Assembly: GCA_000002435.2 (NCBI GenBank)
Contig: CM018792.1
From: Giardia intestinalis
Lineage: Eukaryota
Length of the DNA stretch: 64,000 nucleotides
Reading direction: 5' to 3' (one strand)
Below the pieces are notes generated by a model. It was not told the DNA's origin. It was given only the letters and a program-made list of their open reading frames with translations, and ran no database searches. A program made the translations under genes and the position numbers. Shown piece by piece: positions 47,773 to 52,198 of this stretch (position 1 is the first letter of the stretch; each line of letters opens with the position of its first letter).

Positions 47773-50700
47773 GGTTCAATTATTTGAATTTAATCAAAGC
47801 GTCACCAAAATATGATGTGAGACCCAGCTGTGCCGAACACACAAAGCCAACATATCATCCTATCATAAATAGATTCTGACATATCGCTAGGTGGGCATCG
47901 TTCTTGAATATATCGTTTCAAGCATTTTAAGGTACTGTTTTTAGTGGACAGAACAACACGTATACCTCTTTTAGGTCAACAGTGACTTTACAATGCTCAC
48001 CATATCGACCATTGTTCAGTACTTAAAAAGCCGACGCACCCTTCTCTGCTATCGTGCAGCTGAGGATCACATCGGGATACAGCTCTTGTTCTAAGGAAGA
48101 GCCGGGCTGCACTTGTCCTGTATACTTGCGCAGCACAGAGAGCCTTGCAAGTCGTGGTGCTGGACCATGTAGTGCGCTGTTTTGCTTTCTTGCATGGACT
48201 GCGGGGCTTATGCAAGAAAGTTGATGGCAGGAAACGTGTACACACTGGCGCTTATATCGTTCCGCTTGATACAAGGCAGCAAGGACGCGTTTTTGTACAC
48301 ACAGTCTAGGATTAATGGCTAAGTACCTTCACACATTGCGTGCCCTGATTTCTGCTTGCTATGGGCCTGTCTGAGCTCTACAACCCTCTGAAGAGAGAGC
48401 TAATCTACCTAACGTTAGCCAAGGCCGCATTCTGACGCTGATAAGCTGGCCACTGACTCACCAATCAACAGCACATGCCACCTTGCACTTCTACCCATAG
48501 AAGCTGCATCTCGGTGTTCTGCTTAACCATAATGTACGGCCTCTCTGCAAGACACGCGTTCCCTGTCTCGGCGCAGCCATAGTAGGATCTGTGGTCAAAT
48601 GCGTAGAAGAACGTACCCAAAAGGTATCGTCTCGGCTCTCCATCTACTGTGATGCGTACTAGCATATGCCAAGTAACTAGTTCATGCGTATCTGTAAGAG
48701 TCTTCAGATACCGCGTAGATATGCGCAGAAGTACTTAACCCTGCCCGTACAGCGCGGCCCCTAGATCACAGATCTTTGCAAACAACCTGGACCGCTATCA
48801 CATGTGCTTCTCCGAGCAAGAAGGCAGTACCTCGGGCTCGCCTAAAAGTACCGCTATGGATCAGCAATCCTTTAAGGAGTGTCTCGCTAGCATCACACGT
48901 GCCTATTGATGGGTGGTTTGTACATCCGTGATATGGCTGTTCTTGTACCTCCAATTACTTCGAGAAAGAACCAGGGAGCGCTCCTTGCGGATTACAGCCG
49001 TGCCACATCAAGCATGCGGCCGCACACCCTTCCAACGTGAGTGACGCACACCGCTGAGACCCATGCACGTTGCTCCGCGGTGTTGCATTGGCACGCAAGT
49101 AGGCTATTCTGAAGACTGCAAACTGTTTCAAGCACCCTGTTACTCCATTCCATATCTTGCAGACGCGCCACAGCGGACGCTTTCACAGATGCCTATAGCA
49201 GAGGAGCTCCTTCGAAGCAAGGGTTGCCTGAAGGTCTTTCTTTATATTGAGGTGACTTGCTAGCCAGCTGGTATAGGCGTCGAAGGAGCCCCATACCTCG
49301 CCTCGGCGATATACCCACCTGCGCACTCGCCGCCCTTCAAGCCTGCCTGCGCTCCCAACGAACTCGGCGAAGGTGGGCAGCAGGCGCGCTGGGAAAGTTC
49401 GGCACCCCGTGTTCCCACGACGTCTCCGATCGCAGTACTGGCGGGGCCTGACGGCGCTTCTCTTCTTAATTCGGAACGAGTTAATTCGGAACGAGTTAAG
49501 GAGTTTCCGCCGTAGGATGGCCGAACTGGCGGCCGGTGGGGCTGTGCAATGCACAAAAGACTTGAGCTTGTAAATCTAGCTTGTTACAATTGGTTTATCG
49601 CCGGGGCTGTGTACAAGGGCCGAATGATCGAAATGGGATAAGCGGAGCGGTCTCTTGTCGATGAAGGAGATAGTGCCCGAGGCAGTGCTGGAGTCGTTCT
49701 CGAGGGCAAACATCTGGACACAGCCGCCAACATGCGACCCCTGCCAACCAGCACACGGAATTTGGTCGATAAGCTGACTGGGCAGCATGCATCTAGGGGA
49801 TTAGCGTTTACCAAAGGACCACATGCAGCCTCTTGAATAGATGAGATGTCGCGTTTGGGTCGAAGGCAGTTGGGCAGCTTCTAGCCCCCAGAGTGCTAAC
49901 CAGTGCCCTGTAAGCTGTCTTGCTAGCACTTGCCTTTCTGCACCCACTGATTGCGGTGTGTCGAACGGATAGCTTCTAGAAGGTAATGCCAGATTCAGGA
50001 GGGATCACCGCGGAGCCCTTCTGCACATGCTTAGTCAATTAAGGGGTACTACTACGATGTGTATCACATGCTATAGCCAGTTACGCCAGCATGGGAGGCT
50101 AGCCATGTCTGGGAAGTAGTAGCTAGTGACACGGTCGACTGCCGGCCATGAGAGCTCCGCGGGGCTGTTCTACTGCGGCTCCATCCTTACACAGAAGGTG
50201 CTGCTATGGGCTAGGATGCGCTGCAGTCCATCAAAGCTTGATGGCGAGAGTCTCGATGAAGACAGAGACATGCGTGTTCTAAGAGCTGGTCCTGCTTCTA
50301 TTGGTACCTTATCATGCGCTGCTCTCCGTGAAGCAATAGGACTGCATGCCGGGAGCTTCATTTATATATACACATAACAAAGCAGGAGCGAGTCGTTCTC
50401 TTGGCTGCTGATCAATGACCCCTCTGTAGCCTACGTCGATCCGGTGGCGAGCCGGCTATTGAAGCTTCCTGTGTCCAATACTAATACTGCCTACGACGGG
50501 CGCCATACTAGCCAAGAATTTGGATAAACAATACCACGATTCATGGGTACGGAGAGTGGCTAGATCGCGTGACTATGCCTTCCAGTTCTCTACTCACCGC
50601 TGGCTGCGCACCAGCTATCTTGGATGCCACAAGAAAAGAGATCAAGCGTTATGCTCTCATTACAAGTATCTCTACGTGGCTCAACAGAATACCTGCCCCG

Positions 50701-52198
50701 GCACTGTATGCGTTCTAAGGGCCTCTTACTCAACGAGCAGGGCACAGACCCTGCGGTGCTACATCCAGACACAGGAAGGGTGGAGGCTGACTGCTAGAGA
50801 CAGTACGGGCCTGCACTGTCTGTCAGGCCAGTCGGATCCTCATGCGCTCTCCGGCCCCTCTGCTGGGCGCTGAGTCCTTGCTAACCTTAGTTACACACCG
50901 TCCGCGGAAGCACATGCGGCAGACCTCGCGGACATGCAGGTGTGCTCCGAAGTCTAGTAACCTGGGCACAGGATGCTGTGGCCATCTGGTTAGTATTACA
51001 GCTTCATCCTGGGCGCGTACAGGTGACCCAGATTGGCACGGGACGTACGGGAAACCGGTGGAAGCCATCTGGTGGCGGGATGCACCACAACCAGCCCCGT
51101 CACCCGATATAAGATACCTCCAGCTGGAAACAAAGTATTCTGTACTGATATGTGCTCGTTCAGAGGTGTGCCCTATTTATCACTTCCTGCTCGGGTAGTC
51201 GGGAGCTAGCTGTTTAGTGCATCTGCCTAAAGCTAAGTAAAGGCAATAGTGGGCACAACAGCCAAGAACGGCCAATCAGACAGCCACCGGACGCACCTCT
51301 TCGCTGTTATCATTGTCAAATCTGGAAGCAGCTGGTGCTTTATTGACACACTATGAGTGGCTGCCTGGTCCCAGCCTTCTCCCATGTTGCAGCACAATAC
51401 CCACACACCGCAAGGGGCGCATAAGTACTCGGTGCGTATGTTACAGGGCTTGTATGATCGTGGATGGCCGACATGAGGCTAATCTTTTTGCTTCAAGTAA
51501 CTTGGTTGGTGAAGGATATGGAGCTGTGGTCTTCAGGGATAGCCTCTGGTCCAGCATTGCGAGATCAGCCATAGATAAGCATGAGTATATCCAGTCACAC
51601 CACAGTGGAGCCCTTAGCCAAGGATGGCAAATGCTCAAGGCCCAACGTCCAAGAAAGATATACAAGTGATTGGTCCCTTTTTCTGAGAGCCCAGCATCCT
51701 CCCAGCAGGTCTGGAGGCCATGGTGCTCTTCATAAGGAAGGGTATAAGAGTCAGACGTAATTGCTGACTAGTCGCTGTTCTGAATGTGACTAGTAGGTAT
51801 GAGAGAATCAGGGTGGATCTAGTCAAGGAAGAGCGAGGAGATGCTATCAGAGGGAACGCAGGGAGACGTTAAACTGACGATCCTTAAGTGAGCGAGAGGC
51901 CGAGCTTAACACCACACAAACAGATAGAATCTTTGGAATGCACGTAGAAATGAGACAGCCTGTCTCTCCGGACGGGGATACAATGTGCTGGGATTGCAGC
52001 GATGGACTGCCATACAGGTTCCTCCGTCATGAAGGGCTACGGAGGAGCGCTGGTGTGGCGATTGACACTACTACTGGATGGAGTGCGCTGGAACATCCTA
52101 GAGAGGATCCTTGCGGGCTAATTGGCTGTTAAACATTCTTCTCCTGACGTCTCATGTTACTGAGTGAAGCACACAAGCAACACGTGAATCGAGCACCA
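47773..52198. other. 4.4-kb ORF-poor gene desert immediately upstream of the VSP gene.
   Basis: No ATG-initiated ORF longer than about 120 aa exists on either strand. No ORF shows codon periodicity or a recognisable domain. GC content is slightly above the window average. Confidence 0.6.
49466..49500. repeat. Tandem duplication of a 15-mer: 2.3 copies of ttaattcggaacgag.
   Basis: Read directly from the sequence: ttaattcggaacgag ttaattcggaacgag ttaag. Confidence 0.9.

What the first reader, a model, noticed from the sequence alone, without database searches (positions are those of the whole stretch)
47773..52198. 4.4-kb gene desert in an otherwise gene-dense genome, directly upstream of an intact VSP
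Elsewhere in the window intergenic spacers are tens to a few hundred bp. Here 4.4 kb has no ATG ORF longer than about 120 aa and no codon periodicity. It marks the switch from the housekeeping region to the VSP/HCMP locus. Candidate explanations are a decayed gene or retroelement, a long non-coding or antisense transcript involved in VSP regulation, or a boundary or insulator region.
Basis: seen in the sequence. Interest (0 to 1): 0.6.

Follow-up and report, generated by a model that had tools for sequence, protein, structure and literature searches.

The report
Non-coding VSP spacer holding a 5S gene

Summary
Window 47773-52198 has no ORF over 123 aa, no codon-usage signal in any frame and no Pfam domain. 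It lies between a conserved housekeeping block (TPR gene 46825-47772, minus strand) and an intact VSP (52199-53356, plus strand).

It is not empty. Rfam finds a full-length 5S rRNA gene at 49394-49528 (minus strand, 76 bits against a threshold of 38). It matches canonical Giardia 5S at 120 of 120 positions, apart from a 15-nt tandem duplication at 49466-49495. This fits the one WB 5S copy "with a 15 bp insertion" described by Feng et al. 2012. A related assemblage-A contig carries the same locus without the duplication.

The rest is two spacers of 1.6 and 2.7 kb. They have raised GC (51.9%), no repeats and no VSP/HCMP remnants or reverse-transcriptase domains. They diverge 2.3-6.6% between assemblage-A isolates, at or above the third-codon-position rate of the neighbouring genes (1.1-1.6%). 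One 1.17-kb block around the 5S gene diverges only 0.43%.

Assemblage B has at least 5.7 kb of non-coding DNA at the same position, with no sequence similarity and no 5S gene. Long, GC-rich, variable spacers next to VSPs are already documented. Verdict: real but ordinary and already known; low interest.

The parts
46825..47772 (-). TPR-repeat protein gene, the last gene of the conserved housekeeping block. It is 100% identical to the protein a source names DHA2_113023.
   Evidence: Pfam TPR families. Exact protein found in 180 collection blocks. Source name.
47773..47953 (-). 5' flank and AT-rich promoter of the TPR gene. This is the only part of the interval that still aligns with assemblage B and a third lineage. 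The strongest conservation is in the last ~60 nt before the ATG.
   Evidence: blastn of L007 (GS) reaches window 47953. Multiple alignment.
48074..48166 (.). Junction and variation hot spot. Three Logan contigs end at 48078 and the ENA contig L015 starts at 48074. L001 accumulates SNPs from 48107 and leaves the window sequence after ~48163-48166, continuing into a VSP 3' end.
47773..49393 (.). Left spacer between the TPR gene and the 5S gene: 1,621 nt, GC 50.4%, non-coding.
48401..49573 (.). Low-divergence block: 5 mismatches in 1,173 nt (0.43%) against L015, including a 508-nt identical run at 48401-48908. It covers the 5S gene and about 1 kb on its 3' side.
49394..49528 (-). 5S rRNA gene: 135 nt, made of the canonical 120 nt plus a 15-nt internal duplication.
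   Evidence: Rfam RF00001, 76 bits (gathering 38), model positions 1-120. 120/120 identical to the canonical copies in L005, L006 and L015 outside the insertion. The Feng et al. primers match at 49502-49524 and 49414-49436.
49466..49495 (.). Two exact tandem copies of TTAATTCGGAACGAG (TRF counts 2.3 copies to 49499). This is the 15-nt duplication, in helix III / loop C of the 5S RNA. It is absent from the orthologous locus in L015.
49570..49585 (-). AT-rich TATA-like box about 42-58 nt upstream of the 5S gene. It reads AACAAGCTAGATTTAC, matching 15 of 16 positions of the consensus published for WB 5S genes.
   Evidence: Consensus from PMC3369914. Position.
49529..52198 (.). Right spacer between the 5S gene and the VSP: 2,670 nt, GC 52.6%, non-coding. 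It includes a hypervariable stretch at 49574-50073 (33 mismatches, 6.6%, against L015).
52197..52203 (+). VSP initiator / Kozak-like motif PyAATGTT (here CAATGTT) containing the VSP start codon at 52199.
   Evidence: Motif from bioRxiv 10.1101/2022.03.07.483299. Position.
52199..53356 (+). Intact VSP gene: 385 aa, signal peptide, CRGKA tail, and the extended polyadenylation signal at 53369.

Best explanation
The interval is the non-coding, GC-elevated, fast-evolving spacer that typically surrounds VSP genes in Giardia intestinalis. Here it lies at the edge of a conserved syntenic block.

It contains one gene: a dispersed 5S rRNA copy on the minus strand, presumably transcribed by RNA polymerase III, with the published AT-rich box upstream. 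In the window's lineage (WB-like, assemblage A1) this copy carries a recent 15-nt tandem duplication that lengthens helix III / loop C. It is the published '15-bp insertion' copy, for which no transcript was found.

The left ~60-180 nt are the promoter of the TPR gene. The last few bases are the VSP initiator.

No sequence-specific function is detectable in the remaining ~4 kb, and it evolves at or above the local third-codon-position rate. It most likely persists because selection for compactness is relaxed, and structural turnover (VSP gain, loss and rearrangement) is high, next to VSP loci.

Shown: non-coding status, the 5S gene and its duplication, divergence rates, and the lack of similarity to VSPs, to reverse-transcriptase (RT) domains and to assemblage B.

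Inferred: the identity with the WB copy of Feng et al., the absence of function of the spacer, and the origin by turnover.
For: - Non-coding status.
- 5S gene: Rfam gives 76 bits over the full model. The sequence is identical to canonical Giardia 5S apart from the 15-nt duplication. The three-way-junction fold is kept.
- Literature on the 5S copy: WB has eight dispersed 5S genes. One has an extra 15 bp inside the coding region and gave 0 of 20 RT-PCR clones (PMC3369914). Both of that paper's primers match the window exactly.
- The orthologous locus in another assemblage-A isolate (L015, colinear with 48074-51842, 97.0% identical) has the canonical 120-nt gene. The duplication is therefore young.
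- Divergence from L015 is 2.3-6.6% over most of the spacer. The flanking genes show 1.1-1.6% at third codon positions and 0.2-0.4% at first and second positions.
- Assemblage B (GS contig ACGJ01002210, L007) has 5,726 nt without an annotated gene, without an ORF over 130 aa and without coding signal at the same position. It has no similarity beyond 181 nt upstream of the TPR gene and no 5S gene.
- Literature on VSP flanks: regions around VSPs are gene-poor and show more allelic variation (PMC7000408). VSP-flanking intergenic regions have median 1,280 and mean 2,131 nt, against 79 and 392 genome-wide, and 53.9% GC in the 2 kb upstream. VSP regions have higher G+C and are linked to synteny breaks (PMC3091692).
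- The window interval has 51.9% GC, against 47.9% in the housekeeping part.
Against: - One 1.17-kb block (48401-49573) diverges only 0.43% from L015. That is significantly below the third-position rate of the flanks (Poisson P between 0.0002 and 0.011). It could hide a functional element beside the 5S gene.
- A non-coding interval of at least 4-6 kb is kept at the same position in assemblages A and B despite complete sequence turnover. That could mean selection on spacing rather than on sequence.
- Expression was not testable.
- Comparison with Giardia retrotransposon DNA (GilM, GilT, GilD) and with the rest of the Giardia genome was not possible with the available collections.
- The RT-PCR evidence that the 5S copy is silent is weak. 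If all eight copies were equally expressed, the chance of 0 of 20 clones from one copy is (7/8)^20 = 0.07.
Confidence: 0.8

Rival explanations
1. The spacer is the fully eroded remains of one or more VSP/HCMP genes or of a non-LTR retrotransposon (GilM/GilT/GilD type), decayed beyond recognition.
For: - GC content lies between that of housekeeping DNA and VSP DNA.
- A frameshifted VSP pseudogene lies only 5 kb away, at about 57.4-59.5 kb.
- The literature reports pseudogenes and retrotransposon relics between VSP genes.
- In contig L001 a VSP 3' end lies next to the same TPR gene.
- One 8-of-9-residue match to a VSP motif (AARTRFCT, window 48273-48299) differs from the VSP only at third codon positions, but its E-value is 0.21.
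Against: - No Pfam hit (VSP, reverse transcriptase, endonuclease or anything else) in six frames at E <= 1. The same model finds the nearby pseudogene at E 2e-92 and 7e-45.
- tblastn and blastn with the local VSP, HCMP and pseudo-VSP sequences give only chance-level hits.
- Cys content is 4%, and there are at most 6 CXXC motifs per frame, against 12.7% and 17 in the neighbouring VSP.
- No repeats.
Confidence: 0.12
2. The 1.17-kb low-divergence block (48401-49573) contains an unannotated functional element next to the 5S gene, for example another polymerase III or small structured RNA gene, or an extended 5S transcription unit.
For: - 5 mismatches in 1,173 nt, with a 508-nt identical run (expected number of such runs 0.0002). 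The adjoining DNA differs by 5-6.6%.
Against: - Rfam at E <= 1 finds only 5S.
- The folding z-score scan finds nothing robust there; the best window is 48403-48542 at z = -2.4.
- A 1-nt indel at 48850, together with the lack of codon signal, argues against a protein.
- Assemblage B has nothing similar.
- A mosaic of ancestry produced by recombination between isolates would give the same pattern without any function.
Confidence: 0.08
3. The interval acts as a chromatin boundary or spacer between constitutively expressed housekeeping genes and the epigenetically controlled VSP locus, with the polymerase III 5S gene as a barrier element. Alternatively, it produces a long or antisense RNA that regulates the VSP.
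For: - Its position is exactly at the housekeeping/VSP switch.
- A non-coding interval of at least 4-6 kb sits at the same position in assemblages A and B despite sequence turnover.
- Another 5S locus (L005) also lies ~450 nt from a VSP 3' end.
- From general knowledge, polymerase III genes act as barriers in yeasts.
Against: - Assemblage B has no 5S gene in its interval.
- No sequence constraint over most of the interval.
- No repeats or structured segments.
- Nothing here tests chromatin state or transcription.
Confidence: 0.05

Closest known systems
The Giardia lamblia WB 5S rRNA gene copy with a 15-bp insertion (Feng et al. 2012, PLoS One 7:e36878, PMC3369914)
   Same: A dispersed single 5S gene with an extra 15 bp inside the coding region. 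Both published RT-PCR primers match exactly. The AT-rich box about 42-58 nt upstream matches 15 of 16 consensus positions.
   Different: No difference was detected. The paper's gene identifier and coordinates could not be cross-checked, because no WB genome record is in the available collections. New here: the insertion is an exact tandem duplication in helix III / loop C, and it is absent from the orthologous locus of another assemblage-A isolate.
Gene-poor, GC-rich, variable regions flanking VSP genes (Xu et al. 2020, PMC7000408; Rodriguez-Walker et al. 2022, bioRxiv 10.1101/2022.03.07.483299; Jerlstrom-Hultqvist et al. 2010, PMC3091692)
   Same: It lies directly next to a VSP and is far longer than the genome's usual spacers. 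GC is raised. Isolate-to-isolate variation is higher. It sits at a point where assemblies and synteny break.
   Different: At 4.4 kb it is about twice the mean VSP spacer if the 5S gene is ignored, and ordinary (1.6 + 2.7 kb) if it is counted. Its GC of 51.9% is slightly below the 53.9% average reported for the 2 kb upstream of VSPs. No transposon relic or pseudogene was detectable, unlike in several published VSP pairs.
Canonical eukaryotic 5S rDNA arrays
   Same: It encodes a standard 5S RNA with the three-helix junction.
   Different: It is a single dispersed copy rather than a tandem array. Flank similarity to other Giardia 5S loci is limited to about 30 nt upstream and 6 nt downstream. 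Only a TTT run follows the gene.

Membership tests
5S rRNA (Rfam RF00001) | Covariance-model score above the curated gathering threshold over the full model | tested here: met
   76 bits against 38, model positions 1-120 of 120, E 2.4e-15.
5S rRNA (Rfam RF00001) | Three-helix junction secondary structure | tested here: met
   The minimum-free-energy fold keeps the junction. The duplication only lengthens the helix III arm. Energy is -52.3 kcal/mol, z = -3.6.
5S rRNA (Rfam RF00001) | Transcribed and incorporated into ribosomes | not testable with these tools
   The literature reports 0 of 20 RT-PCR clones from the insertion copy (PMC3369914). That is weak evidence: (7/8)^20 = 0.07.
Published WB 5S copy with 15-bp insertion | Exactly 15 extra bases inside an otherwise canonical Giardia 5S coding region | tested here: met
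   120/120 identity to canonical copies, plus one extra 15-nt unit.
Published WB 5S copy with 15-bp insertion | Belongs to isolate WB, and is the only such copy in that genome | not testable with these tools
   The window is 100% identical over 11.3 kb to a Logan contig of run SRR3177742, but no WB genome record was available for comparison.
VSP-flanking gene-poor region | Adjacent to a VSP gene and much longer than the genome's typical intergenic spacer | tested here: met
   4,426 nt, or 1,621 + 2,670 nt around the 5S gene. Other gaps in the window are at most 703 nt. Published genome median is 79 nt.
VSP-flanking gene-poor region | Raised G+C relative to housekeeping DNA | tested here: met
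   51.9% against 47.9%.
VSP-flanking gene-poor region | Raised sequence variation between alleles or isolates | tested here: met
   2.5% mismatches overall (3.0% counting gap columns) and up to 6.6% locally against L015, compared with 0.56-0.8% in the flanking 11 kb.
VSP/HCMP pseudogene | Residual similarity to the VSP family, or Cys-rich CXXC periodicity | tested here: not met
   No Pfam VSP hit at E <= 1. tblastn gives noise only, and Cys is 4%. Positive control: the nearby pseudogene is found at E 2e-92.
Giardia non-LTR retrotransposon relic (GilM/GilT/GilD) | Reverse transcriptase or endonuclease remnants | tested here: not met
   No Pfam hit in six frames at E <= 1.
Giardia non-LTR retrotransposon relic (GilM/GilT/GilD) | Nucleotide similarity to the element sequences | not testable with these tools
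   The element sequences are not in any searchable collection here.
Conserved regulatory long non-coding RNA | Sequence or structure conserved across assemblages | tested here: not met
   No similarity to the assemblage-B interval. Divergence within assemblage A is at or above the third-codon-position rate, except in one block. No robust structure.
Conserved regulatory long non-coding RNA | A discrete transcript | not testable with these tools
   No expression data were available.

The most novel reading that the evidence does not exclude
A spacer of at least 4-6 kb is kept at the same housekeeping/VSP border in assemblages A and B even though its sequence has turned over completely. Within assemblage A, a 1.17-kb block next to the 5S gene is unusually conserved. 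Together these could mean that the interval is selected for length, or as a chromatin boundary, with a polymerase III gene or an unannotated RNA as its active element. It would insulate constitutive genes from the mutually exclusive control of VSP expression.
Probability: 0.06. Interest if true: 0.55.

Novelty: already known. Interest (0 to 1): 0.15.

Why it matters
It matters little beyond annotation. The result shows that an apparent gene desert in a very compact genome is the documented VSP-flank architecture plus a known 5S rRNA variant.

Small additions:
- The 15-nt insertion is an exact tandem duplication, specific to the window's lineage, in an otherwise invariant gene.
- The spacer evolves at or above the local third-codon-position rate, in a mosaic pattern.
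- An equally non-coding but unrelated interval occupies the same position in assemblage B.

If the boundary reading were true, it would bear on how Giardia isolates VSP loci for antigenic variation. Nothing here supports that directly.

Tried and rejected
- Dispersed or internal repeats. blastn of the interval against the whole window and the repeat finder found nothing beyond chance-length matches.
- Pfam on six-frame translations: no hit at E <= 1.
- A concatenation of all 42 stop-free segments of at least 55 aa, searched against 5.8 billion proteins, gave no hit. The search also failed to recover P0001 and P0002, which the 123-aa ORF alone had found. It failed its positive control and is uninformative.
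- The 123-aa ORF over the 5S gene only retrieved spurious ORFs over other 5S loci. Those loci show that the interval is not a repeated 5S unit, because flank similarity is limited to about 30 nt.
- The longest ATG ORF (118 aa) has a single relative in 1.84 billion representatives, at 95% identity. That relative is the same non-coding locus in another isolate, so it is not evidence of a gene.
- The exact VSP protein, from either start codon, is not on record.
- A scan of JGI metagenome contigs for the Giardia 5S sequence found nothing.
- RNA folding z-score scan. One window (51973-52112, plus strand) reached z = -3.3, but the enlarged segment gave z = -1.4. Rejected.
- Directional (RIP-like or deaminase-like) hypermutation. 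The 85:11 transition excess is symmetric in direction, and the flanking genes show the same excess. Rejected.
- The sigma-70 promoter and terminator scan is not applicable to a eukaryote and was at chance level.
- A short VSP-like peptide match (AARTRFCT) has E = 0.21. Treated as chance.
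Full report
**1. The observation**

The window is Giardia DNA. The ORF at 52154/52199-53356 is a variant-specific surface protein (VSP; Pfam PF03302, E 8.6e-81, CRGKA tail). The genes to the left are ordinary housekeeping genes: a TPR protein, a DHHC palmitoyltransferase, a leucine carboxyl methyltransferase and others.

- Between the TPR gene start (47772) and the VSP there is no ORF longer than 123 aa. The longest ATG ORF is 118 aa.
- The longest stop-free run in six frames is 139 codons. Shuffled sequence gives 144 +/- 27.
- A codon log-likelihood scan trained on the window's genes stays at or below 0.037 bits per codon from 47650 to 52150. The adjoining genes give 0.1-0.33.
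- Gaps between long ORFs in 1-47772 never exceed 703 nt.
- The VSP starts at the ATG at 52199, inside the VSP initiator motif CAATGTT at 52197-52203.

**2. What is in the interval**

Rfam finds one gene: a full-length 5S rRNA on the minus strand at 49394-49528. It scores 76 bits against a gathering score of 38, over model positions 1-120. The match spans 135 nt because the helix III / loop C region carries 17 nt where the model has 2.

Tandem Repeats Finder shows the cause: an exact tandem duplication of TTAATTCGGAACGAG at 49466-49495. Outside this duplication the gene is identical at 120 of 120 positions to canonical Giardia 5S genes recovered from three other contigs, L005, L006 and L015, each scoring 88.3 bits. 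The predicted fold keeps the three-way junction, and the duplication only lengthens one arm.

Nothing else was found:
- no Pfam domain in six frames at E <= 1;
- no other Rfam family at E <= 1;
- no tRNA;
- no repeats within the interval or against the rest of the window;
- no similarity to the window's VSP, HCMP or VSP pseudogene at protein or DNA level;
- Cys content of 4% and at most 6 CXXC motifs per frame, against 12.7% and 17 in the neighbouring VSP.

As a positive control, the Pfam VSP model detects the frameshifted VSP pseudogene at 58531-59492 with E 2e-92 and 7e-45.

**3. The 5S copy is already published**

Feng et al. 2012 (PMC3369914) report eight dispersed 5S genes in G. lamblia WB. 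Seven are 117 bp and one has an extra 15 bp inside the coding region. All 20 sequenced RT-PCR clones came from the normal genes.
- Both of their primers match the window exactly, at 49502-49524 and 49414-49436.
- Their AT-rich upstream box matches at 15 of 16 positions at 49570-49585, minus strand.
- The window is 100% identical over 11.3 kb to a contig of sequencing run SRR3177742.

I infer that the window's gene is that copy. The evidence that it is silent is weak: with equal expression of eight copies, 0 of 20 clones has probability (7/8)^20 = 0.07.

**4. Related sequences**

*(a) The same interval in another assemblage-A isolate.* The only relative of the 118-aa ORF among 1.84 billion representative proteins led to ENA contig L015 (3,754 nt). 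It is colinear with window 48074-51842 at 97.0% identity, with 96 mismatches and 3 gaps.
- Its 5S gene is the canonical 120 nt. The duplication is therefore recent and specific to the window's lineage.
- L015 shares SNPs with the A2-like contig L001.
- Divergence is a mosaic:

| Window segment | Divergence from L015 |
|---|---|
| 48074-48400 | 5.2% |
| 48401-49573 | 0.43% (5 of 1,173 nt; includes a 508-nt identical run) |
| 49574-50073 | 6.6% |
| 50074-51842 | about 2.3% |

- For comparison, the flanking genes differ from three A2-like contigs by 1.1-1.6% at third codon positions and 0.2-0.4% at first and second positions.
- Most of the spacer therefore evolves at or above the local third-codon-position rate. 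Only the block holding the 5S gene and its 3' side is unusually similar.
- The strong transition excess (85:11) is symmetric in direction and is equally strong in the flanks. It is not hypermutation.

*(b) Assemblage B.* The TPR ortholog of isolate GS (88% identical) lies on NCBI contig ACGJ01002210 (L007) in the same gene order.
- It is preceded by 5,726 nt up to the contig start with no annotated gene, no ORF over 130 aa and no codon signal.
- This DNA has no 5S gene.
- It has no nucleotide or translated similarity to the window interval beyond the first 181 nt upstream of the TPR start. Those 181 nt are the promoter region.

*(c) Other 5S loci.* L005 and L006 share only about 30 nt upstream and 6 nt downstream with the window copy. 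The interval is therefore not a repeated 5S unit.

*(d) Assembly behaviour.* Short-read contigs of every lineage end 110-320 nt upstream of the TPR gene.
- In assemblage A, three contigs end at 48078 and L015 starts at 48074.
- The ENA contig L001 leaves the window sequence at about 48163 and continues into a VSP 3' end.
- This could be a second haplotype or an assembly chimera; I cannot tell which.

**5. Explanation**

The interval is two non-coding spacers of 1,621 and 2,670 nt on either side of a dispersed 5S gene. It lies at the border of a syntenic housekeeping block and a VSP locus. This architecture is documented:
- Regions around VSPs are gene-poor and show more allelic variation (PMC7000408).
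- VSP-flanking intergenic regions have median 1,280 and mean 2,131 nt, against 79 and 392 genome-wide, and the 2 kb upstream of VSPs average 53.9% GC (bioRxiv 10.1101/2022.03.07.483299).
- VSP regions have higher G+C and coincide with synteny breaks (PMC3091692).

The window interval has 51.9% GC against 47.9% for the housekeeping part. The same VSP locus contains further ORF-poor stretches: 53357-54158, 56289-57380 and 59.5-64 kb.

I conclude that the spacer has no sequence-specific function that can be detected. It persists because compaction is relaxed and structural turnover is high next to VSPs. Confidence is 0.8.

**6. Rivals**

- *Fully eroded VSP or retroelement (0.12).* It cannot be excluded, but it gained no support.
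- *Unannotated element in the conserved 1.17-kb block (0.08).* It is suggested only by low divergence, which a mosaic of ancestry would also explain. Assemblage B has nothing similar.
- *Chromatin boundary or regulatory long RNA (0.05).* It rests only on position and on the non-coding interval being kept in assemblage B. The B interval lacks a 5S gene.

**7. Limits**

- No Giardia genome, retroelement or expression data were searchable.
- The concatenated-ORF search failed its positive control and is not counted as evidence.
- The link to gene names is inference. The TPR protein is named DHA2_113023 by a source, and a VSP GL50803_00113024 is mentioned.

**8. Verdict**

The feature is real but ordinary and already known, for both the VSP-flank spacer and the 5S variant. 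Interest is 0.15.

Noticed in passing
window 48074-48078: Four independent short-read assemblies break at the same few bases. Logan contigs L002-L004 end at 48078, and ENA contig L015 starts at 48074, so they overlap by only 5 nt. No repeat or inverted repeat explains this. It coincides with the point where identity between isolates drops from over 99% to about 95%.
   Followed up: partly
L001:24-674 (ENA ERZ27317378, k141_18710), joined to window 48163: In this 99.2%-identical assemblage-A contig, a VSP 3' end (CRGKA tail plus the extended polyadenylation signal) lies about 570 nt from the TPR start, in place of the window's spacer. It is either a second haplotype or an assembly chimera.
   Followed up: partly
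window 48401-49573: This 1.17-kb block, holding the 5S gene and its 3' side, is 99.6% identical to L015, while neighbouring DNA differs by 5-6.6%. No RNA family, ORF or structure was found in it.
   Followed up: partly
L005:1-99 and L005:549-668: Another Giardia 5S locus, on a gut-metagenome contig, has its canonical 5S gene about 450 nt downstream of a VSP-like 3' end. That makes two of two 5S loci with readable context lying next to VSP sequence. A possible 5S-VSP association was not tested genome-wide.
   Followed up: no
window 57379-59492 (+): A frameshifted VSP pseudogene. A VSP initiator motif is at 57379, VSP-family fragments lie at 58531-59310 and 59184-59492 (Pfam E 2e-92 and 7e-45), and the tail reads CRSKA instead of CRGKA.
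   Followed up: partly
window 59500-64000: A second ORF-poor stretch of at least 4.5 kb with very high GC (57-62%). It has many overlapping ORFs on both strands, none with a Pfam hit. The window ends inside it.
   Followed up: partly
window 54159-56288 (-): A large Cys-rich membrane protein of HCMP/CRMP type, with a weak Pfam VSP hit (E 3e-5) and a C-terminal transmembrane segment. It is transcribed towards the VSP.
   Followed up: no
window 52154 (+): An in-frame ATG lies 45 nt upstream of the VSP start and would add 15 residues ahead of the signal peptide. The initiator motif marks 52199 as the real start.
   Followed up: partly
window 36825-51842 compared with L001, L002, L004 and L015: Differences between assemblage-A isolates are overwhelmingly transitions (ts:tv from 8:1 to 22:1), in genes and in spacer alike.
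   Followed up: partly
window 1719-3139: A GC-rich island (67% in 2001-3000) with long overlapping ORFs on both strands. None has a Pfam hit.
   Followed up: partly
window 32039-32112 (-): A tRNA-Val (anticodon TAC) gene lies in a 625-nt gap between housekeeping genes.
   Followed up: no
L007:1-5726 (GS, ACGJ01002210): The non-coding interval of assemblage B is compositionally patchy. It has blocks of 40-44% GC and blocks of 56-57% GC, and it reaches the contig start, so its full length is unknown.
   Followed up: partly
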